From the NCBI GenBank assembly GCA_043798985.1, contig JAZDOE010000002.1:22500-86499 (forward strand): a stretch of DNA of 64,000 nt. The letters run 5' to 3'. Position 1 is the first letter of the stretch. Every line of letters begins with the position of its first letter. Source of the stretch: Candidatus Falkowbacteria bacterium. GTDB lineage: Bacteria; Patescibacteriota; Patescibacteriia; UBA11705; JACRDX01. The position numbers and the translations under genes were made by a program. Shown piece after piece: positions 3,137 to 46,099 of the stretch. The notes beneath the pieces are model-generated. The model did no database searches and was not told the origin of the DNA. It worked only from the letters and a program-made list of their open reading frames with translations.

Positions 3137-4477
3137 ATGATAAATTATACAAATAAAAAAATATTGATTTTGGGGCTTGGAATACTGGGCAAGGGCGTCG
3201 GAGATGCTATTTTTTTCGCAAAAAAGGGCGCGAAAGTTTTGGTGACTGATTTAAAAACGAAAAAACAACTCGCCTCATCCTTAAAAAAATTAGCAAAGTA
3301 CAACAATATAAAATATATTTTGGGAAAACATCGCGAACAAGATGTTTTGAACGCTGATTTGATAATTCGCAATCCTGATGTTCCGCTGAATTCCCCGTTT
3401 TTACAGCTCGCTTTCAAAAAAAATATTCCGGTTGAAATGGATGACTCGCTTTTTGCCAAACATTGTCCTTGCACTTTGATCGGTGTCACAGGAACGCGCG
3501 GTAAAACGACAACAACAACATTGATTGGCGAACTCGCGAAACTTACTGGCCGCAAAGTTTTTGTGGCAGGAAATATCAAGGGCACCGCAACATTGCCGCT
3601 GATTGATAAAGTAAAACCAAATGACATTGTCGTGTTGGAACTTTCAAGTTGGCAATTGCAAGGATTTAAATGGGACAAAATCAGTCCGCACATTTCGGTT
3701 TTTACAAATATTTATCCGGACCATTTGAATCGTTATGATTCAATGAAAAAATATATTGATGACAAAAAAAATATCTTTAAATTTCAAAAACCGACTGACT
3801 TTGTTATTTTGAACAAAGAAAATAGCTTTACCCGTGAAGCAAAAAAAGAATGCGGGGCGCAAGCCCTTTGGTTTGAAAAATCGCAAGTGCCAAAAACGTG
3901 GAAACTTAAAATGCTTGGCGCGCATAATTTGGAAAATGCTGCCGCGGCCATGCAAGTTGGAAAAATTCTTGGCTTAACAATGGAGCAAATGAAAAAAACA
4001 ATTTGCGATTTTCCGGGCGTTGAACATCGTTTGGAGCACGTGGCAACAATCAAAGGCGTGAACTTTATTAATGACACAACATCAACAACGCCGATCTCCG
4101 GACAAATCGCTTTAAAAACAGTGCGGAAACCAATAATTTTAATTGCCGGCGGCGCGACCAAAAAATTGAACCTTTCCAGTTTTGGTCGCGCCATTTCCAA
4201 AACAGTAAAAGCCGTAGCACTTTTAAATGGAACGGCCACCGCTGAATTGGAAAAAGCAATTATTAAAAGCGGTGGCCGCAAATTAATATTGGGAAAATTT
4301 GATAATCTCCTCCCTGCGGTCCGCGCTTGTATCAGCACAAGCAAAAAAGGCGACACAATTTTACTATCGCCCGGCTGCGCAAGTTTTGGCATTTTTAAAA
4401 ATGAATTTGACCGCGGCGAAAAATTTAAAAAAATAGTAAAAAAATATGCAAAAGCTGCGATCAGAATCCAAAATTGA
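3137..4477 (+). CDS. murD: UDP-N-acetylmuramoylalanine--D-glutamate ligase
   Basis: Mur ligase P-loop GVTGTRGKTTTTT, position after mraY. Confidence 0.9.
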   Translation: MINYTNKKILILGLGILGKGVGDAIFFAKKGAKVLVTDLKTKKQLASSLKKLAKYNNIKYILGKHREQDVLNADLIIRNPDVPLNSPFLQLAFKKNIPVEMDDSLFAKHCPCTLIGVTGTRGKTTTTTLIGELAKLTGRKVFVAGNIKGTATLPLIDKVKPNDIVVLELSSWQLQGFKWDKISPHISVFTNIYPDHLNRYDSMKKYIDDKKNIFKFQKPTDFVILNKENSFTREAKKECGAQALWFEKSQVPKTWKLKMLGAHNLENAAAAMQVGKILGLTMEQMKKTICDFPGVEHRLEHVATIKGVNFINDTTSTTPISGQIALKTVRKPIILIAGGATKKLNLSSFGRAISKTVKAVALLNGTATAELEKAIIKSGGRKLILGKFDNLLPAVRACISTSKKGDTILLSPGCASFGIFKNEFDRGEKFKKIVKKYAKAAIRIQN

Positions 4478-28985: not shown

Positions 28986-29063
28986 ATAATGTGATTATAT
29001 TATAACACAAACATGGATAATAAAAAAACCACAATTTTGTGGATAAATACATACTTCGTAATT

Positions 29064-36753: not shown

Positions 36754-37914
36754 TTATTTCACGGTATTTTTCAACCTCGCCTCAATGAAATTCTCAATAT
36801 CGCCATCCAATACGGAGTCAACATCTGAAGTTTCAATTTCTGTGCGATGATCTTTGACCATTTTGTACGGTTGCAAAACATACGAACGAATCTGATTACC
36901 CCAACTGGCCTCGGTATACTCGCCACGCAAAGCTTTTTTCTCCTCCTCTTTTTTTGCCTCATTATATTGCCGCACTTTTGATTGCAAAACCCGCATGGCA
37001 ATTTTTTTGTTTTGCGCCTGCGAACGCTCGTTTTGGCAAGTGACAACAATCCCAGTCGCCAAATGAGTAATGCGAACAGCCGAATCGGTTGTGTTCACGC
37101 TTTGCCCGCCATGCCCGCCAGAACGAAAAACATCAACCTTGATTTCATCGTCTTTAATCGCCAACTCCGCGGTTTCCGGAAAAATCGGCAAAACCTGCGC
37201 CAATGCAAACGATGTGTGCCGCATTTTTTCCGCGTCAAAAGGAGAAATACGCACCAACCGATGCACACCAGCCTCGCATTTCAAATAACCATAAGCAAAA
37301 TCACCATCAACTTCAACTTCAACGCTTTTGATTCCAGCTTCAGCGCCGCTGGATATCCACAAAATTTTTGTCTTCCAGCGGCGCTTTTCACAAAATCGCA
37401 AATACATTCGCAAAAGCATTTCCGCCCAATCCTGCGCGTCAGTGCCTCCGGCGCCGGAGTTAATTGAAAAAATCGCGCCATAAGAATCATATGGCGCAGA
37501 AAGCAACAATGATGTTTCCATCTTTTTAAAATCCGCTTCAATCTTTTGCGCCTCAATCACCCAATCTTCCGGCAGCTCGTCCTTATCACCAGCCCGCTTC
37601 GCAGGAGCTCCCGCTTCGACCGCGAAGCGAGGCGAGTCAGCCTGCCTCGCCGAGTCAAGGCGGGCGAGGCGAGCCAGTTCCAAAAACGCGGCCGTGCGTT
37701 CGCGCAATTCCAGCCACGCGCTAATTTCTTTTTCCAGCCGCGCCAGCTCTTGGTTCAGCGCGGCTGCTTTTTGCGCGTCTTTCCAAAAATCCGGCCGCGT
37801 CATTTTTTCATGTAATTCAACAATCCGCTTTTGCTTTTCATCCAATTTCAAAATCCCAATCGCTTGTTTGATTTTTTCAGCTATCTGCTCAATTGTTTTA
37901 TATAATTCAGTCAT
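36754..37914 (-). CDS. prfB: peptide chain release factor 2, single continuous frame (no programmed frameshift), with 26-aa in-frame GC-rich repeat insertion
   Basis: SPF and GGQ motifs; ORF continuous from ATG. Confidence 0.9.
   Translation of the reverse strand: MTELYKTIEQIAEKIKQAIGILKLDEKQKRIVELHEKMTRPDFWKDAQKAAALNQELARLEKEISAWLELRERTAAFLELARLARLDSARQADSPRFAVEAGAPAKRAGDKDELPEDWVIEAQKIEADFKKMETSLLLSAPYDSYGAIFSINSGAGGTDAQDWAEMLLRMYLRFCEKRRWKTKILWISSGAEAGIKSVEVEVDGDFAYGYLKCEAGVHRLVRISPFDAEKMRHTSFALAQVLPIFPETAELAIKDDEIKVDVFRSGGHGGQSVNTTDSAVRITHLATGIVVTCQNERSQAQNKKIAMRVLQSKVRQYNEAKKEEEKKALRGEYTEASWGNQIRSYVLQPYKMVKDHRTEIETSDVDSVLDGDIENFIEARLKNTVK
37591..37680. repeat. GC-rich (about 70%) repeat module inserted in-frame in prfB (encodes ARLARLDSARQADSPRFAVEAGAPAKRAGD)
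   Basis: 38-nt exact match GTCAGCCTGCCTCGCCGAGTCAAGGCGGGCGAGGCGAG to reverse complement at 41929-42007; related modules at 62861-63010. Confidence 0.8.
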
Positions 37915-40822: not shown

Positions 40823-41515
40823 TTATCTGATCCCACATGTTTTAAACCACCCCTTAATCTGCGCCTTAATATCATTTAACTCTTTTAACGTTAATCGCGG
40901 CGTGTTCAACAACGAAGGGTCAATAATTCTATCAGTCGGTTTAAACCGCTGAATAAAAAATTTATTCGCGCCTTTCACCTGTTTGGCCATTTCAACAATA
41001 TCATTTGAACTGTGCAGTTCTGATAAAACGGTCGCGCGAAATTCATGTTCAACGCCACTATTTAATATTATTATAGCACTTTTTTTAACCGCAGACATAT
41101 CAACCGTTGCGCCAATGATCTTTGAATATTTTTGCCACGGCGCCTTTATATCCATTGCAAAATAATCAACCGCTTTTTCAGCCAGCAACTGTTCAAGTAC
41201 ACCCGGATTTGTTCCGTTTGTGTCCAACTTGACCAACAAACCGCGCTCTTTTATTTTTTTTATAAATTTCAACAAATCTTTTTGCAAAGTTGGCTCGCCG
41301 CCGGTAATGCAAACCGCATCAATCAAATGCTGACGCGCTTTGATCAAATCCCAAATGTCGCTTTCACTGATTGTTTTAACGTATTGCGCTGGAATAACTA
41401 ACTCTGGATTATAACAAAAACGGCAACGAAATCCGCATCCCTTGGTAAAAATAGTCATTGCCACTTTTCCAGGATAATCCAGCAATGTAAGCGGTTGTAC
41501 GCCACCAATCAACAT
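40823..41515 (-). CDS. nrdG: anaerobic ribonucleoside-triphosphate reductase activating protein (radical SAM)
   Basis: CGFRCRFCYN motif, size, position downstream of nrdD. Confidence 0.85.
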   Translation of the reverse strand: MLIGGVQPLTLLDYPGKVAMTIFTKGCGFRCRFCYNPELVIPAQYVKTISESDIWDLIKARQHLIDAVCITGGEPTLQKDLLKFIKKIKERGLLVKLDTNGTNPGVLEQLLAEKAVDYFAMDIKAPWQKYSKIIGATVDMSAVKKSAIIILNSGVEHEFRATVLSELHSSNDIVEMAKQVKGANKFFIQRFKPTDRIIDPSLLNTPRLTLKELNDIKAQIKGWFKTCGIR

Positions 41516-41645
41516 AAAATAAAAAACACGAAATCCGAAGCACTAAATCCTAAACAAATTCGAAATCTGAATGTTTCAAAATTGGAAAATTCAAGTTTCG
41601 TGCTTGTTTCGTATTTCGATATTCTAATTTCGTGCTTTCTTTTTG
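41516..41645. repeat. AT-rich palindromic repeat (CACGAAATCCGAAGCAC ... GTGCTTGTTTCGTATTTCG arms, AATGTTTCAAAATTGG core)
   Basis: family member, see 11119-11266. Confidence 0.65.
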
Positions 41646-41846
41646 TTATTGTAAAAGCGCATCACTTTTATGCATTACCTGATCATATGTCCTGCGATCT
41701 CCAAACTCCGAGCGCTTTCCCTCATTCCACCGGTTCACTGGACTCAAATATCCCACAACTCGAGAATAAATCTCGCATTTTTGTCTTGGTTTTTGTATTG
41801 GTGTCATAACTGCTACGGCTAACATATTTGTTTTTATATTATACAA
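41646..41846 (-). CDS. small ORF carrying the NrdD-type glycyl-radical motif (SRVVGYLSPVNRWNEGKRSEFGDRR), separated from the nrdD frame
   Basis: matches C-terminus of E. coli NrdD (RRVCGYLGSPDARPFNAGKQEEVKRR); track start is TTG, first ATG at 41825; different frame from nrdD with stops between. Confidence 0.5.
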   Translation of the reverse strand: MYNIKTNMLAVAVMTPIQKPRQKCEIYSRVVGYLSPVNRWNEGKRSEFGDRRTYDQVMHKSDALLQ

Positions 41847-41875
41847 CTAAACTAACAATCAACCAAGTGTCTAAA

Positions 41876-44800
41876 TTAACCATTTTTCGGAGCTTGCGCT
41901 GTGTTATCCACAGCATTGGAATTTGGGACTTGCCCGCCTGCTCGCCTCGCCCGCCTTGACTCGGCGAGGCAGGCTGACGCTTCGTCGAAGCGGGCCGACG
42001 AGGCAGGGTCATTAAGTTTCAACGCTTCCCGCCCTTGATCAACATACCCAGACTGCTCGTCGCACAAAGGGCAATATTCTTGCTCACCGGATAAATAGCC
42101 GTGAATCGGACAAATGCTGAATGTCGGCGTAATTGTAAAATATGGCAACCGAAAATTGTTGGCAATTTTCTTAACAAGTTCTTTCGTGGCTTCTGGCGAA
42201 GGCATTTTTTCGCCGAGAAAGCCGTGGAACACGGTGCCGCCAGTGTAGCGAATCTGCAAATCATCCTGCAATCGCAAGGCCGTGAAAATATCGTCAGTAT
42301 AGCCAACGGGCAAATGCGTGGAATTTGTATAATATGGAGCGGCATTGCGCGCGCGGCAGGCAACTTCATTGGCGACAATAATATCGGGAAATTTCTTTTT
42401 ATCAATTTTGGCAAAACGGTATGACGCGCCTTCTGCCGGAGTCGCTTCCAAATTGTACAAATGGTTGGTCGCGTTTTGGTAATCCATAATCCGTTCTCTC
42501 ATAAAATCCAAAACCTGCCGCGCGAATTTATGGCCTTCAACTGTCGTAATATCTTGCCCCAACAAATTCAACGCTGATTCATTAACACCATTCAAACCGA
42601 TTGTATTAAAATGATTTTGCCAATATCCGCCAAACCGTTCTTTTATTAAGCCAAGAAAATGCTTTGAATATGGATAAAGTCCGCCGTCCGTGAGATTTTC
42701 TAGAACGGTTCGCTTAACTTCCAAACTTTCTTTTGCCAAATCCATCAATTTTCCAAGCTTGTCAAAAAATTCTTCTTTGCTATTAGACAAATATCCCAAA
42801 CGCGACATGTGGATCGTCACCACGCCAATACTGCCAGTTAGCGGGTTAGCGCCAAATAAACCGCCCCCGCGCTTGCGCAATTCTCTATTGTCCAAACGCA
42901 AACGGCAACACATGCTCCGCGCGTCCTCTGGCTTCATATCGGAAAATATGAAATTCGCAAAATATGGAATGCCGTACTTTGATGTCATTTCCATGATTTT
43001 TTGAATAATCGGCGCGTCCCAATTCCAGTCTTTTGTCACATTATACGTTGGAATGGGCCAGCTCAAAACCCTGCCTTTTCTATCACCCTCTGTCATCACC
43101 TCAATAAATGCCTGATTAAACATGTCCATTTCTTTTTGGAACTCGCCGTAGGTTTCTTTTTGCGGCTGACCTCCGATTATTATTGACTCTTTCGCCAAAA
43201 TTCCGGCTGGAAACAAATCAAATGTCACGTTTGTAAATGGCGTGTTGCCTGTTATAAATATTTTGCCATTGCGCCGCGCAATAACGGTTTCATTATCCGT
43301 ATTTGGACACCAAATAATCCCCTCATAATCAACTTTTGTCACCTTATTAATATATGTATCTACATGCTTAATCAACCTAATAATATACCGATCTTTTTTA
43401 GACAATTTGTTGTCTGGCTTTCGCGTCAGCACAGTGGCGCCATATCCGGCATTTACCGCCACCTGCAAAAGTCCATCTGCGATCTTTTTTGATGTCGTCG
43501 TAATTTTGCATCCATCGTGACCATCTCCTTTTATATACGTCTCTAAAAACAATCTGGACGTTTCAACGTCAGCTTGCAAAATACTCTGTGGAATCAATTT
43601 AATACCCTGCTGCTTATCGGACTTAAAATAATTCAATATTTTTCTGGTGCTAAACGCGTCAAAACGCAAAACATTACAATCCTGACCCAATCCGCACTGC
43701 ATTCTTTCTGTATATTTCAATCCCAAATTATCGCAAATTGAAACTATCTCATCATAATTGTCAGCAGACACTGCACGCGATTGATAAATGCTTATGCGGC
43801 CAGTACCCCGTTCGCCCTTATCTATGGTTCCTTCTGCCACTATCCACGCAATCAACTTTACAATTTCTTCATTCAACGAACCATTGCCACGCGTATTTCC
43901 ATCGCTACCGACTGGCACGATAAATGGCGATTTCAATGCTATAACATCTTCTATTTTTTCCAAAACATATTCACTGCCATTGAACTTTTTCCGCACGACA
44001 CGATGTTCTGGCGAAATAAGCTGGTCGCTAATTCTGTTTTTCAAATTATACATTTTACCGGAATATTTTCGCGCAAAAACTTTATTAACCGGCAGATACT
44101 CAATATACCCCCCTTCAACATTAAACGTTGCAATTATATCGCCACTTTTTATTTGATTATATTGAGCCCAGCCATTTTTACCCAAAATTTCCGTGTCCTC
44201 TGACATGCATTGAAACCCTACTCGCGTAGGCACGTTCATATTAAACAAAAAAATCTGCATCTGTTGTTTAACCTGATCCTGCGTCAGACTGTCGTATCTG
44301 ATAAATGGCGCCAAATACGTGTCCAAACTGGAAACCGCTTGCGCGCCAGCTGAATTTCCACACCAGCAAGCCCGACCCTTTCTTCTTACATATAAAGTAT
44401 GATTTGGCACTTCCAAACAATAAACCGTTCCATAATAATGCACCTTTTTTATATTTTGTTCTTTGCTCCTGAATTTAAAATGTCTTGACCGAGAAACGCA
44501 AACTTTATACCATTTAAAATTCTTTTTGTGTTTTTCGTAAATATTAGCGCTAAATCCTAATTTTAATATTATCTCCTGAACATCGTCTGCCAATTTTTTG
44601 CTTTTTGTATAATATTCAATATTACCACCACCAATATACCCATCACCAGCCATCATCCAGTGCAATAAAATATCCAATTCTGCTTTTGCCAAGTTCTTAA
44701 TTTCTTTAGGAATAAACTTACTGTCCGCTTTTCCAAACTGTTTCAGATATAAAAATAATTGCTTATTGCCAATATAAAATTCCAGTTTTTTATTATTAAC

Positions 44801-46099
44801 TTTTTTATTATATTTAAATGGAAGTTTTCTCAAAATTTGTTCAAATTCATCGGCAATTTTTCCTTGATTTTGACTGATGCGCACTAAATACTCATAATAT
44901 GCTTTCTTGCGACCTTTTCTTTTTCTTTCCCGCAAAGAAACACAACCTTCTGCTATCCAAAAACCAAAAAATGCCAACCAATCTTTCATCATTATTTTTT
45001 TCGCTAAGCATTTTTTAATTACATATTTTTTACCATAATGCTGGTACTGCCTAATGTCTATTTCCGGCAAAATAAATTCTTTTTTTGATACGCCGTTCCA
45101 TGCTCCATTCTTAGGAATAAAATGCTCACTAGGATTAAACGCCGCTGCTTTGACAAACTTTCGACGATATGGTCCGCCCTTACAGTTCGGGCAATATTGG
45201 TCAACAACCATGTTATGATTTGGAGTGACTAAAATATCTATTTTTTTGGATTTAAAATTATATAATTCTCCGTTGTAAATATATTTGTAAAACTTAATCG
45301 GCTTTTTCAATTCAATTCTATTCGTTTGATTATTTAGTGTAAAAACTTTATTTTGCTTATCTACTTCATAAAAATATTTCCACCCTGAATCAGTTAAAAC
45401 TTCGGTATCCTCTGAATAACATTCTCCCTGCAAAGTATAAAAAAAATTCACCAGCTGTCCCAATGCCGTGGCAAAATGTTTCGGCGGCTTGCTTTCCACC
45501 TTGCCGGAAATTCCGCCAAAGCCGCGCGAAATTAAGTCGTGCAAATCCCAGCCGCAACAATAGGTAGATAAAATTTGTAAATCATGAATGTGAAAATCAC
45601 CATTCACGTGCGCGTCTTTTACTTTTGGCGGATAAATTTTATTCAGCCAATAGTTCGCGCTAATAGTTGAAGAAACGTAATTATTCAAACCTTGCAACGA
45701 AAAATCCATGTTGCTATTTTCTTTGACGCGCCAATCCAGCTTTTGCAAATATCCTTCAATCAGATCATTTGGATCAATCAAATTACTCATTTCACGAATT
45801 TTCGCGTGCTGATCGCGATAAATCACGTACGCTTTGACGGTTTTACGAAGTTTATTATCAATTAAAACATCCTCAACAATATCCTGAATTTCTTCAATCG
45901 CGGGAATTGTCCTTTCGTGAAATTTTTTGTTAAGCCGCTCAACAACTTCATCGGATGCTTTTTCAGCCTGCTCTTTTGCGCCTTCTTCCGCGGCTTGCAT
46001 TGCTTTAAAAATCGCAGTCGTGATTTTATTTTGGTCAAAATCAACAATCCTGCCATCGCGCTTGCAAATCTGAATAATCTTATTGCCAGAATAAGACAT
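41876..46099 (-). CDS. nrdD: anaerobic ribonucleoside-triphosphate reductase (class III) with ATP-cone and two inteins; C-terminus altered by repeat insertion
   Basis: ATP-cone N-terminus, HIHDL motif, PYFTITP...CPIH...CPLC Zn ribbon; extein about 729 aa. Confidence 0.9.
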   Translation of the reverse strand: MSYSGNKIIQICKRDGRIVDFDQNKITTAIFKAMQAAEEGAKEQAEKASDEVVERLNKKFHERTIPAIEEIQDIVEDVLIDNKLRKTVKAYVIYRDQHAKIREMSNLIDPNDLIEGYLQKLDWRVKENSNMDFSLQGLNNYVSSTISANYWLNKIYPPKVKDAHVNGDFHIHDLQILSTYCCGWDLHDLISRGFGGISGKVESKPPKHFATALGQLVNFFYTLQGECYSEDTEVLTDSGWKYFYEVDKQNKVFTLNNQTNRIELKKPIKFYKYIYNGELYNFKSKKIDILVTPNHNMVVDQYCPNCKGGPYRRKFVKAAAFNPSEHFIPKNGAWNGVSKKEFILPEIDIRQYQHYGKKYVIKKCLAKKIMMKDWLAFFGFWIAEGCVSLRERKRKGRKKAYYEYLVRISQNQGKIADEFEQILRKLPFKYNKKVNNKKLEFYIGNKQLFLYLKQFGKADSKFIPKEIKNLAKAELDILLHWMMAGDGYIGGGNIEYYTKSKKLADDVQEIILKLGFSANIYEKHKKNFKWYKVCVSRSRHFKFRSKEQNIKKVHYYGTVYCLEVPNHTLYVRRKGRACWCGNSAGAQAVSSLDTYLAPFIRYDSLTQDQVKQQMQIFLFNMNVPTRVGFQCMSEDTEILGKNGWAQYNQIKSGDIIATFNVEGGYIEYLPVNKVFARKYSGKMYNLKNRISDQLISPEHRVVRKKFNGSEYVLEKIEDVIALKSPFIVPVGSDGNTRGNGSLNEEIVKLIAWIVAEGTIDKGERGTGRISIYQSRAVSADNYDEIVSICDNLGLKYTERMQCGLGQDCNVLRFDAFSTRKILNYFKSDKQQGIKLIPQSILQADVETSRLFLETYIKGDGHDGCKITTTSKKIADGLLQVAVNAGYGATVLTRKPDNKLSKKDRYIIRLIKHVDTYINKVTKVDYEGIIWCPNTDNETVIARRNGKIFITGNTPFTNVTFDLFPAGILAKESIIIGGQPQKETYGEFQKEMDMFNQAFIEVMTEGDRKGRVLSWPIPTYNVTKDWNWDAPIIQKIMEMTSKYGIPYFANFIFSDMKPEDARSMCCRLRLDNRELRKRGGGLFGANPLTGSIGVVTIHMSRLGYLSNSKEEFFDKLGKLMDLAKESLEVKRTVLENLTDGGLYPYSKHFLGLIKERFGGYWQNHFNTIGLNGVNESALNLLGQDITTVEGHKFARQVLDFMRERIMDYQNATNHLYNLEATPAEGASYRFAKIDKKKFPDIIVANEVACRARNAAPYYTNSTHLPVGYTDDIFTALRLQDDLQIRYTGGTVFHGFLGEKMPSPEATKELVKKIANNFRLPYFTITPTFSICPIHGYLSGEQEYCPLCDEQSGYVDQGREALKLNDPASSARFDEASACLAESRRARRAGGQVPNSNAVDNTAQAPKNG
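41929..42007. repeat. GC-rich repeat module inside nrdD 3' end (opposite orientation to prfB copy)
   Basis: exact 38-nt match with prfB copy. Confidence 0.8.
43244..44209 (-). mobile_element. intein 2 in nrdD (322 aa) with LAGLIDADG homing endonuclease motifs
   Basis: starts CMSEDTEILGKNG after extein VGFQ, ends KIFITGN before Thr; LIAWIVAEGT and FLETYIKGDGH motifs; flanking extein aligns with NrdD (GQTPFVTFGF region). Confidence 0.75.
44354..45421 (-). mobile_element. intein 1 in nrdD (356 aa) with LAGLIDADG homing endonuclease motifs
   Basis: starts CYSEDTEVLTDSG after extein TLQGE, block F VYCLEVPNHTLYV, ends ACWCGN before Ser; FFGFWIAEGC and LLHWMMAGDGYIG motifs. Confidence 0.75.

What the first reader, a model, noticed from the sequence alone, without database searches (positions are those of the whole stretch)
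41646..42060. nrdD 3' end is interrupted: the glycyl-radical motif sits in a separate downstream ORF in another frame, after a GC-rich repeat insertion
The main nrdD frame runs through the Zn-ribbon region (CPIH...CPLC) and then reads into a GC-rich repeat (41929-42007). It terminates at 41876 without the essential RxxGY glycyl-radical motif. That motif (SRVVGYLSPVNRWNEGKRSEFGDRR) aligns well with the C-terminus of E. coli NrdD, but it lies in the small ORF 41646-41846 in a different frame, with stop codons between. Either the only visible RNR has been pseudogenised at its radical site, or the glycyl-radical domain is supplied as a separate polypeptide, or a programmed or assembly frameshift is involved. 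nrdG and both inteins are intact, which argues against long-standing decay.
Basis: partly seen in the sequence, partly recalled or inferred. Interest (0 to 1): 0.7.

Follow-up and report, generated by a model that had tools for sequence, protein, structure and literature searches.

The report
Split anaerobic RNR, separate radical subunit
The anaerobic ribonucleotide reductase gene here is not broken: in this bacterium and many other ultra-small bacteria and archaea, the short piece that carries the enzyme's glycyl radical is a separate ~50-residue protein with its own gene, an arrangement I could not find described for this enzyme.

Summary
The 1407-aa nrdD ORF (41876-46099, minus strand, two inteins) ends after the Zn ribbon without an RVVGY motif. 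That motif lies in a small ORF (41646-41807/41825) in another frame.

It is not a pseudogene, an assembly error, an intron or a frameshift. Among 163 related loci, 70 have a contiguous nrdD and about 80 are interrupted at exactly this site. The interrupted loci come from Patescibacteria, DPANN archaea and Bipolaricaulota.

- In the 66 split loci examined for starts, the small ORF has an in-frame start codon, often behind a textbook GGAGGTG ribosome-binding site.
- In about 18 loci the activase gene nrdG lies between the two pieces (12 checked ORF by ORF).
- The small ORF is under purifying selection: 19 synonymous versus 3 non-synonymous codon differences from a relative.
- A profile search returned only 45-149-aa proteins among the top 150 cluster representatives.

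The GC-rich repeat is a separate matter. It is a 93-nt in-frame insertion (41920-42012) in the dispensable tail. It is absent from close relatives that are equally split, and a second copy sits in-frame inside prfB.

Best reading: a class III RNR made of a large subunit, a separate ~50-aa glycyl-radical subunit and NrdG. I found no description in the searchable literature. A 2026 review says stand-alone radical proteins are known only for formate lyases.

The parts
41876..46099 (-). nrdD large subunit ORF (1407 aa including two inteins; 729 aa of extein). It has an ATP-cone, the catalytic barrel with finger-loop SMCCR (42902-42916), a Zn ribbon and a free tail. It has no glycyl-radical motif.
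   Evidence: ORF list. Pfam ATP-cone plus NRDD profile positions up to 531/562. tblastn pieces. Coordinates.
44354..45421 (-). Intein 1 (356 aa, CYSEDTEV...ACWCGN|S) with a LAGLIDADG homing-endonuclease domain.
   Evidence: Pfam LAGLIDADG_3 and Intein_splicing. Absent from relatives P0001/L081 and L162. Coordinates.
43244..44209 (-). Intein 2 (322 aa, CMSEDTEILG...IFITGN|T).
   Evidence: Gap between the collinear tblastn pieces. Junction residues and coordinates. No Pfam domain reached E 0.001.
42062..42112 (-). Zn-ribbon motif CPIHGYLSGEQEYCPLC, the last conserved element of the large subunit.
   Evidence: Aligned to the T. maritima NrdD Zn site region.
41879..42061 (-). Non-conserved acidic C-terminal tail of the large subunit (61 aa here; 4-68 aa in relatives). 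It begins DEQSGY, matching the clade consensus DEEMGY.
   Evidence: Tails of 120 homologues. Tails in loci. Mean net charge about -3.
41920..42012 (-). GC-rich (68% GC) imperfect palindromic element. It is a 93-nt in-frame insertion in the tail and is not the cause of the split.
   Evidence: Alignment with L162 and L081. Fold -43.5 kcal/mol, z -1.9. Second copy in prfB.
41904..41912 (-). TGTGGATAA, the reverse complement of the DnaA-box consensus TTATCCACA. It is conserved about 105-118 nt upstream of the small-ORF ATG in five related loci, whether or not it lies in coding sequence.
41838..41866 (-). Candidate promoter for the small gene: TTGGTT (41861-41866), 17 nt, TATAAT (41838-41843). The -10 hexamer is invariant in WIN, L162 and L081. 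This is an inference.
   Evidence: Three-way alignment. Not reported by the consensus scan because the -35 matches only 3 of 6.
41646..41825 (-). nrdD small subunit (glycyl-radical subunit). It is 53 aa from ATG 41807-41805, the clade-conserved start 14 codons before SRVVGY, or 59 aa from ATG 41825-41823. The radical Gly codon is 41751-41753. TAA stop at 41646-41648.
   Evidence: Pfam NRDD positions 531-562. 19 synonymous versus 3 non-synonymous differences from L081. Identical 59-aa protein annotated in NCBI.
41510..41651 (-). Long imperfect hairpin (70-nt arms built from ~32-nt repeats) between the small ORF and nrdG. It ends in a U-run just before the nrdG ATG. Possible terminator or attenuator; role unknown.
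   Evidence: Inverted repeat. RNA fold -41.8 kcal/mol, z -4.3.
40823..41515 (-). nrdG, the radical-SAM activase (230 aa).
   Evidence: Pfam Radical_SAM and Fer4_12. Same position in L081 and L162.

Best explanation
The class III ribonucleotide reductase of this Candidatus Falkowbacteria-type genome is encoded as three adjacent genes.

1. A large subunit: ATP-cone, ten-stranded barrel with the finger-loop cysteines, and Zn ribbon. It also carries two inteins that must splice out.
2. A separately translated 53-59-aa subunit that is only the glycyl-radical loop (KCEIYSRVVGYLSPVNRWNEGK...).
3. The activase NrdG.

The fission point lies in the linker between the Zn ribbon and the radical loop.

Inferred mechanism:
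- The small protein docks non-covalently into the barrel where the covalent C-terminal domain normally sits.
- NrdG abstracts the Gly hydrogen, either on the free peptide or on the complex.
- The radical is passed in trans to the finger-loop cysteine.
- Because O2 cleaves glycyl-radical proteins at the radical glycine, an untethered radical subunit can be discarded and replaced without remaking the large, twice-spliced subunit. This is an obligate version of the GrcA/YfiD 'spare part' principle.

What is shown: the two-gene architecture, its wide conservation, independent translation signals, and purifying selection. What is inferred: non-covalent assembly, activation in trans, the repair advantage, and the small gene's own promoter and DnaA-box control.
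For: **Same site in all close relatives.** All ~55 closest NrdD homologues (70-91% identity; Falkowbacteria, Kuenenbacteria, Uhrbacteria and others) end '...CPxCDEEMGY + 8-25 variable residues'. More distant homologues run on into CEVYSRVVGY.

**Frequency.** Of 163 loci, 70 are contiguous, 62 are split with adjacent pieces and 19 are split with a gap over 650 nt. One of the 19 (L015) is a tandem-nrdD artefact.

**nrdG in the gap.** In 12 loci checked ORF by ORF, a ~235-aa nrdG occupies the gap.

**Independent translation signals.** Each of the 66 split loci checked has an in-frame start 8-31 codons (mostly 8-20) before SR..GY. DPANN, Bipolaricaulota and some CPR loci have GGAGGTG 3-9 nt upstream, and some starts overlap the upstream stop. 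In the window's clade an ATG lies exactly 14 codons upstream.

**No fixed frame relation.** Gaps are 72-1463 nt in all three frame offsets.

**Selection.** Window versus L081 small ORF: 19 synonymous and 3 non-synonymous codon differences in 43 codons.

**Synteny.** The relatives L081 and L162 lack inteins and the GC-rich element but have the same split. L162 also shows the full ftsZ-nrdD-small-nrdG-ddl order seen in the window.

**Size of the family.** A profile of small subunits against 1.84 billion representatives gave 5048 hits, and all of the best 150 are 45-149 aa. A direct search gave 26 stand-alone 39-80-aa proteins, one identical to the window's.

**Large subunit still looks functional.** It keeps SMCCR, the Zn ribbon and the ATP-cone.

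**Sequence signature of autonomy.** GY.RP is present in 69 of 69 contiguous forms. Of 81 split forms, 43 have S, T or A in place of R, and 12 have F or W after the Gly.

**Structure.** In an AlphaFold model of an intact relative, the fission site is a coil linker (pLDDT ~69, against 82-86 on either side).
Against: - There is no expression, proteomic or biochemical evidence. Assembly and activation in trans are inferred only by analogy.
- In the window's own clade the small ORF has no Shine-Dalgarno sequence. Its promoter rests on three aligned sequences and was not picked up by the consensus scan.
- Only 64 kb of this genome was visible, so another RNR elsewhere cannot be excluded.
- The loci were chosen by similarity to this protein, so the split-to-contiguous ratio is not a prevalence estimate.
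- Some small database proteins could be fragments from contig ends.
- The fitness rationale (cheap replacement after O2 damage) could be wrong. The fission may be neutral in lineages prone to gene fission.
Confidence: 0.85

Rival explanations
1. Pseudogene: the only visible RNR has been inactivated at its radical site and the small ORF is a decaying remnant.
For: In this window the main frame ends without the essential motif and reads into a repeat element.
Against: - The same break point occurs in about 80 loci from several phyla.
- The small ORF is under purifying selection, 19 synonymous to 3 non-synonymous differences.
- Start codons and ribosome-binding sites are conserved.
- The catalytic motifs, both inteins and nrdG are intact.
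- Relatives without the repeat are split in the same way.
Confidence: 0.03
2. One protein from two ORFs: an intron (group I or other), a programmed frameshift or a gene-60-like translational bypass removes the spacer, so a normal full-length NrdD is made.
For: - The spacer in the window contains stable GC-rich hairpins.
- T4 nrdD is known to carry a group I intron (my own knowledge).
- Group I introns are common in Patescibacteria (PMC13011429).
Against: - No Rfam family matched 41300-42500, even at E up to 10.
- The fold z-score is only -1.8.
- Spacers share no length (72-1463 nt), sequence or frame relation.
- Some pieces overlap, with a ribosome-binding site inside the upstream ORF.
- nrdG is encoded in the spacer in about 18 loci.
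- A start codon is present in each of the 66 split loci examined.
- The GC-rich hairpins are missing from L162 and L081.
Confidence: 0.04
3. Assembly or sequencing artefact: an indel or chimera created the break in this one contig.
For: Metagenome assemblies can carry indels. The GC-rich repeat is a plausible place for a mis-assembly.
Against: - Independent assemblies from ENA, NCBI and JGI show the same architecture.
- No single indel joins the frames, because several stops intervene.
- The 93-nt insertion is in-frame.
Confidence: 0.01
4. The two polypeptides are joined after translation by a split intein (protein trans-splicing).
For: The gene already hosts two cis-inteins, so splicing chemistry is at work at this locus.
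Against: - The tail of the large subunit (4-68 aa, variable) and the leader of the small one (about 7-13 aa before the Cys) are too short and too variable to be intein halves. They match no intein family.
- Tails differ completely between clades, for example DEEMGY... versus AAEE.
Confidence: 0.02
5. The split is real and both pieces are made, but it is a neutral gene fission with no repair or regulatory benefit, typical of reduced CPR and DPANN genomes.
For: - Split and contiguous forms are interspersed in a rough NJ tree.
- Split genes are a known feature of Nanoarchaeota (PMC3655853).
- The fission lies in a permissive coil linker.
Against: - It persists across very deep divergences.
- Arg is lost from GY.RP only in split forms.
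- The gene order was rearranged with nrdG in between.
- A DnaA-box motif is conserved upstream in one clade.

Together these hint at adaptation, but none is decisive. This rival concerns why the split exists, not what it is.
Confidence: 0.3

Closest known systems
Canonical class III RNR, NrdD + NrdG (T4, E. coli, T. maritima; PF13597, TIGR02487)
   Same: All the elements are present: ATP-cone, barrel, finger-loop cysteines, Zn ribbon, RVVGY radical loop and an adjacent radical-SAM activase. The exteins are 57-68% identical to intact NrdDs.
   Different: The radical loop is on a separate ~50-aa polypeptide with its own start codon. In many split forms the Arg of GY.RP is replaced.
GrcA/YfiD of E. 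coli and Y06I of phage T4: autonomous glycyl-radical 'spare part' proteins for pyruvate formate-lyase
   Same: A small stand-alone protein that carries only a glycyl-radical loop. It is presumably activated by the cognate activase and inserted into a large catalytic subunit (PMC13450708, PMC8683613).
   Different: - GrcA is homologous to the PFL C-terminus (Gly_radical, PF01228). This protein matches only NRDD.
- GrcA backs up a PFL that has its own radical domain. Here the large subunit has none, so the small subunit is obligate.
- GrcA is 127 aa with a disordered N-terminal region. This protein is ~46-59 aa.
- The 2026 review says such proteins are known only for formate lyases.
Split class II RNR NrdJa/NrdJb (Pseudomonas aeruginosa)
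   Same: An RNR catalytic chain split into two genes near the C-terminus. The downstream piece carries a C-terminal functional module (PMC9669993, citing Crona et al. 2015).
   Different: It belongs to a different RNR class and uses different chemistry (AdoCbl). NrdJb is a large folded protein with IscU-like and Zn-finger domains, not a ~50-aa radical loop.
Genes-in-pieces NrdA of Aeromonas phage Aeh1 (split by the homing endonuclease mobE; from my own knowledge, Friedrich et al. 2007)
   Same: An RNR large subunit split into two polypeptides that reassemble into an active enzyme.
   Different: That split was caused by an inserted endonuclease gene and occurs in class I. Here the gap holds no mobile gene; it is either a plain spacer or nrdG.
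Rickettsia palindromic elements (RPE; from my own knowledge, Ogata et al. 2000). This comparison is for the GC-rich element only.
   Same: A short repeated palindromic element found in-frame inside protein-coding genes and translated as extra residues. Copies lie in the nrdD tail and in prfB.
   Different: Only two copies were seen, in one 64-kb window. There is no sequence relationship to RPEs. It is GC-rich in an AT-rich genome. Mobility is not shown.

Membership tests
Class III RNR catalytic protein NrdD (PF13597 / TIGR02487) | Homology over the catalytic barrel, including the finger-loop cysteine(s) | tested here: met
   Pfam NRDD E 3e-164. SMCCR at 42902-42916. 68% identity to intact P0066 over residues 269-661.
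Class III RNR catalytic protein NrdD (PF13597 / TIGR02487) | C-terminal Zn-binding ribbon | tested here: met
   CPIH...CPLC at 42062-42112, aligned with the T. maritima site. Metal binding itself is not testable here.
Class III RNR catalytic protein NrdD (PF13597 / TIGR02487) | Glycyl-radical motif RVxGY on the same polypeptide as the barrel | tested here: not met
   The large ORF stops at profile position 531/562. The motif is in a separate ORF in another frame. The same holds in about 80 related loci.
Class III RNR catalytic protein NrdD (PF13597 / TIGR02487) | Cognate radical-SAM activase NrdG encoded nearby | tested here: met
   40823-41515, Radical_SAM plus Fer4_12.
GrcA/YfiD autonomous glycyl-radical cofactor | Small stand-alone protein consisting essentially of a glycyl-radical loop | tested here: met
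   53-59 aa here; median 46 aa over 66 loci.
GrcA/YfiD autonomous glycyl-radical cofactor | Homology to the PFL-type Gly_radical domain (PF01228) | tested here: not met
   The only Pfam hit at E up to 1 is NRDD positions 531-562. NCBIfam hits are all NrdD models.
GrcA/YfiD autonomous glycyl-radical cofactor | Acts as a spare for a partner enzyme that has its own radical domain | tested here: not met
   The partner large subunit lacks the domain. There is no second nrdD in the window. One related locus (L015) does pair an intact nrdD with a split one.
GrcA/YfiD autonomous glycyl-radical cofactor | Restores activity of the O2-cleaved enzyme | not testable with these tools
   Needs biochemistry.
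Group I (or II) self-splicing intron | Conserved ribozyme core detectable by covariance model, with conserved structure across homologous insertions | tested here: not met
   No Rfam match at E up to 10 over 41300-42500. Spacers of 72-1463 nt have no shared sequence, and nrdG lies inside some.
Gene-60-type translational bypass / programmed frameshift | Fixed short coding gap with matched take-off and landing codons, no independent start for the downstream part | tested here: not met
   Gap length and frame offset vary. The downstream ORF has its own start and often a ribosome-binding site in each of the 66 split loci examined. Take-off and landing codons were not examined locus by locus.
Split intein (protein trans-splicing) | N- and C-intein fragments flanking the break, with a nucleophile at +1 | tested here: not met
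   The tails (4-68 aa) and leaders (~7-13 aa) are variable and give no intein hits.
In-frame palindromic repeat elements (RPE-like) - GC-rich element only | Repeated palindromic element inserted in-frame in unrelated coding genes | tested here: inconclusive
   Two copies were found: nrdD tail 41920-42012 and prfB ~37581-37684. Both are in-frame and in opposite orientations relative to their genes. Two copies are too few to define a family.

The most novel reading that the evidence does not exclude
Class III RNRs of many Patescibacteria, DPANN archaea and some other anaerobes are obligate heteromers. The glycyl radical is carried by a free, exchangeable ~50-residue 'radical cartridge' that NrdG charges and the barrel subunit borrows. 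This would be the first autonomous glycyl-radical protein outside the formate lyases. It would let oxygen-damaged enzyme be repaired by subunit swapping. In the Falkowbacteria-like clade it could also let the radical subunit be expressed from its own DnaA-box-associated promoter, tying dNTP synthesis to replication initiation.
Probability: 0.5. Interest if true: 0.8.

Novelty: new variant of a known kind. Interest (0 to 1): 0.68.

Why it matters
- **An open question in the field.** Glycyl-radical enzymes are thought to carry their radical on the catalytic chain itself. The only known exception is the GrcA/YfiD spare part for pyruvate formate-lyase. A June 2026 review states that it is still undetermined whether such proteins exist for other glycyl-radical enzymes (PMC13450708). 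A natural, widespread and apparently obligate two-chain NrdD would answer that question.
- **An experimental system.** It gives a minimal ~50-aa substrate for studying how an activase recognises and charges a radical loop. It also allows radical transfer in trans and oxygen-damage repair to be tested.
- **Annotation.** Hundreds of CPR and DPANN NrdD entries that look truncated should not be scored as pseudogenes or as lack of dNTP synthesis. The 40-80-aa 'anaerobic ribonucleoside-triphosphate reductase' ORFs are real subunits.

Tried and rejected
- **Rfam.** A scan at E up to 10 over 41300-42500 gave only chance miRNA and snoRNA matches.
- **Folding the spacer.** The 306-nt spacer region folds with z -1.8, which is not remarkable. 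The intron idea was dropped once relatives showed spacers of 72-1463 nt with their own ribosome-binding sites and with nrdG inside.
- **Promoter scan.** The consensus scan did not report the candidate promoter, because its -35 matches only 3 of 6. The promoter therefore rests only on three-way conservation.
- **24-mer search.** A search for the GC-rich core with up to 3 mismatches found no second copy. A later blastn with short words found the prfB copy.
- **First motif regex.** It required GY and missed split loci with GW or GF. An HMM of the small subunits recovered them.
- **Source record.** An exact look-up of the window's own 59-aa protein found no contig on record, so the source record was not retrieved.
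- **Literature.** Seven searches found no description of a split NrdD. Subscription-only papers are not covered.
- **Split intein and assembly error.** Both were considered and rejected; see the rival explanations.
- **Not attempted.** Structure prediction of a fused or two-chain complex. The tool takes single chains and only sequences as found. An intact relative was modelled instead.
Full report
**Observation**

On the minus strand, ORF 41876-46099 (1407 aa) encodes an anaerobic (class III) ribonucleotide reductase. It has an ATP-cone, three NRDD segments and a LAGLIDADG intein domain.
- Two in-frame inteins interrupt it: aa 227-582 (44354-45421) and aa 631-952 (43244-44209).
- After the Zn ribbon CPIHGYLSGEQEYCPLC (42062-42112), the frame continues for 61 non-conserved residues and stops at 41876-41878 without the RVxGY motif.
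- The motif lies in a small ORF ending at 41646, offset by 2 nt, with stops between.
- tblastn with an intact NrdD (P0066) finds four collinear pieces in the window: three exteins plus the small ORF. There is no second copy.
- Pfam maps the large ORF to NRDD profile positions up to 531 and the small ORF to 531-562.
- A conceptual join aligns across the junction with T. maritima NrdD.
- No other RNR is among the window's ORFs of at least 400 aa.

**The interruption is conserved, not an accident**

The ~55 closest homologues (70-91% identity; Falkowbacteria, Kuenenbacteria, Uhrbacteria and other Patescibacteria) all end '...CPxCDEEMGY' plus 8-25 variable residues. More distant homologues continue directly into '...CEVYSRVVGYLRPVxQWNxGK'.

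I fetched 162 related loci from genome and metagenome collections. Classifying them together with the window, using a profile of the small ORF, gave:
- 70 contiguous genes;
- 62 split with adjacent pieces;
- 19 split with a gap over 650 nt (one of them, L015, is an artefact of a tandem nrdD);
- 12 undecidable, mostly short contigs.

Split loci carry labels of Patescibacteria, DPANN archaea (Pace-, Woese-, Micr- and Nanoarchaeota) and Bipolaricaulota/Acetothermia. The loci were selected by similarity to this protein, so these numbers are not prevalences.

**It is a two-gene arrangement**

- The distance from the last Zn-ribbon Cys to SR..GY is 21-60 nt in contiguous genes. In split genes it is 72-1463 nt, in all three frame offsets.
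- Each of the 66 split loci first examined has an in-frame start codon 8-31 codons (mostly 8-20) upstream of SR..GY.
- In DPANN, Bipolaricaulota and several CPR loci, that start is preceded at 3-9 nt by GGAGGTG-type ribosome-binding sites. These sometimes lie inside or overlap the end of the upstream ORF.
- Most decisively, in 12 loci checked ORF by ORF the gap contains the ~235-aa radical-SAM activase gene nrdG. The order there is nrdD(truncated)-nrdG-small ORF. The profile-based classification raises this to about 18 loci.
- No intron, frameshift or ribosomal hop can account for that arrangement.
- Rfam finds nothing in the window's spacer even at E 10.

**The small ORF is a real gene**

- Against the 91%-identical relative L081, it differs at 19 synonymous and 3 non-synonymous codons out of 43.
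- Across 66 loci it is 39-65 aa (median 46), with consensus RQKCEVYSRVVGYLRPVxQWNxGKxAEFxDRKTF.
- A direct search found 26 stand-alone proteins of 39-80 aa. One is 59 aa, identical to the window's, and annotated in NCBI as 'anaerobic ribonucleoside-triphosphate reductase [Candidatus Falkowbacteria bacterium]'.
- A profile search of 1.84 billion 50%-identity representatives gave 5048 hits. All of the best 150 are proteins of 45-149 aa.
- Split small subunits have diverged in a way contiguous ones have not. GY.RP is present in 69 of 69 contiguous sequences. Of 81 split sequences, 43 carry S, T or A instead of Arg, and 12 have F or W after the radical Gly.
- The window's protein has the GYLSP form.
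- The large-subunit tails are acidic (mean charge about -3) and the small-subunit leaders are basic (about +1.2).

**The fission point**

It lies between the Zn ribbon and the radical loop. An AlphaFold model of an intact relative whose linker resembles both halves (P0110...CKEEHGY|KKQKCEVYSRVVGY) shows a coil there. The pLDDT is about 69, between better-defined hairpins at 82-86. This is only supportive evidence.

A rough neighbour-joining tree intersperses split and contiguous forms. The nrdG-in-between type forms one clade. That suggests either several fissions or fission with re-fusion and transfer. The tree is too crude to decide.

**The window's own clade**

- The syntenic Falkowbacteria contig L162 (ftsZ-nrdD-small ORF-nrdG-x-ddl) and L081 have intein-free nrdD genes of 698 and 686 aa with the same split.
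- In this clade an ATG sits exactly 14 codons before SR..GY in nearly every locus. In the window it is at 41807-41805. There is no Shine-Dalgarno sequence.
- A three-way alignment shows conserved DNA blocks upstream:
  - CTGTGGATAA;
  - AAAAATGGTTA;
  - TTGG, 17 nt, then an invariant TATAAT (41838-41843);
  - ATATG.
- I read this as a dedicated promoter with a short leader, but that is inference. The consensus scan did not call it.
- TGTGGATAA is the reverse complement of the DnaA-box consensus. It occurs at -105 to -118 from the ATG in five loci (WIN, L162, L081, L086, L087), whether it falls in coding tail or in spacer.
- Three perfect boxes were found in about 9 kb of other split spacers, where roughly 0.07 is expected.

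**The GC-rich repeat**

- Relative to L162, the window has a 93-nt in-frame insertion (41920-42012, 68% GC against 42% for the window). It lies within the non-conserved tail. Both tails end at the same TAA.
- It folds into GC-rich hairpins (-43.5 kcal/mol, z -1.9).
- It is therefore a secondary event, unrelated to the split.
- A second copy exists at ~37581-37684, with a 39-nt perfect core and about 100 nt alignable.
- That copy lies inside prfB (release factor 2, 36754-37914), in the opposite orientation relative to the gene, and is also in-frame. RF2 carries about 25 extra residues there compared with solved RF2 structures.
- This behaviour resembles Rickettsia palindromic elements. Two copies are too few to say more.

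**Mechanism**

Shown:
- three genes: large subunit, ~50-aa radical subunit and activase;
- independent translation signals;
- selection on the small ORF;
- catalytic motifs retained in the large subunit.

Inferred from established NrdD and pyruvate formate-lyase biochemistry:
- the small protein docks where the covalent C-terminal domain normally sits;
- NrdG generates the radical on its Gly (codon 41751-41753);
- the radical is passed to the finger-loop cysteine (SMCCR, 42902-42916).

O2 cleaves glycyl-radical proteins at the radical glycine. A detachable radical subunit could therefore be replaced without remaking a 729-aa subunit that here also needs two intein excisions. This is the GrcA/YfiD principle made obligate. 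A neutral fission in lineages prone to split genes remains a serious alternative for why the split exists.

**Comparison with what is known**

- It is a class III RNR by homology but fails one defining feature: the radical motif is not on the catalytic chain.
- It works like GrcA/YfiD but is not a member of that family. It matches NRDD rather than the PFL Gly_radical domain, and its partner lacks its own radical domain.
- Split RNRs are known for class II (NrdJa/NrdJb; PMC9669993) and, from my own knowledge, for phage Aeh1 NrdA.
- Seven full-text searches found no description of a split NrdD.
- A June 2026 review says spare-part proteins are known only for formate lyases, and that it is 'yet to be determined' whether they exist for other glycyl-radical enzymes (PMC13450708).
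- Subscription journals are not covered. The small ORFs are already called in public annotations.
- I therefore rate this a new variant of a known kind, not categorically new.

**Verdict**

Pseudogene, frameshift and a causal role for the GC-rich insertion are wrong.
- Confidence in a genuine, functional two-chain NrdD is 0.85.
- Interest is 0.68.

Noticed in passing
window 41920-42012 and 37581-37684 (inside prfB, ORF 36754-37914, minus strand): The same GC-rich imperfect palindrome occurs twice, with a 39-nt perfect core and about 100 nt alignable. Both copies are in-frame insertions in coding sequence: the nrdD tail and RF2 domain 1, which gains about 25 extra residues compared with solved RF2. 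They lie in opposite orientations relative to the host gene. This resembles Rickettsia palindromic elements.
   Followed up: partly
window 41904-41912 (-); also L162 ~3396, L081 ~2522, L086, L087: A perfect DnaA-box sequence (TGTGGATAA = reverse complement of TTATCCACA) is conserved about 105-118 nt upstream of the small-subunit ATG in five related loci, whether coding or intergenic. The window has 3 such boxes against 0.53 expected (the others are at 29038 and 35976). It may couple expression of the radical subunit to DnaA.
   Followed up: partly
window 41510-41651: A long imperfect hairpin with 70-nt arms built from ~32-nt direct repeats fills the spacer between the small ORF and nrdG (RNA MFE -41.8 kcal/mol, z -4.3). 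It ends in a U-run immediately before the nrdG start. Similar hairpins built from tandem repeats sit just upstream of the small-ORF ATG in relatives (L006, L010, L089, L095, L101). Their function is unknown; a terminator, attenuator or processing site is possible.
   Followed up: partly
L015 302-4471: One MAG contig carries an intact nrdD (720 aa, with its own radical motif). It is followed directly by a split nrdD (581 aa) and a 45-aa radical ORF, so intact and split paralogues occur in tandem.
   Followed up: partly
L055 ~4182-4440: In a Micrarchaeota contig, about 40 nt of the small-ORF 5' end (GAAAACCTGGAAAACAAGCGAACGAAATGCGAAGTCTACAG) is duplicated on both sides of a GC-rich insertion. 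It looks like a target duplication around an inserted element.
   Followed up: no
window 44354-45421 and 43244-44209: This nrdD carries two inteins that its close relatives L081 and L162 lack. With the split, the enzyme's catalytic chain is assembled from three exteins plus a separate polypeptide. Only intein 1 gave a homing-endonuclease (LAGLIDADG) hit.
   Followed up: partly
P0147 (66 aa): The top-scoring stand-alone small protein matched the profile in two stretches, which may mean a duplicated radical motif. It was not inspected.
   Followed up: no
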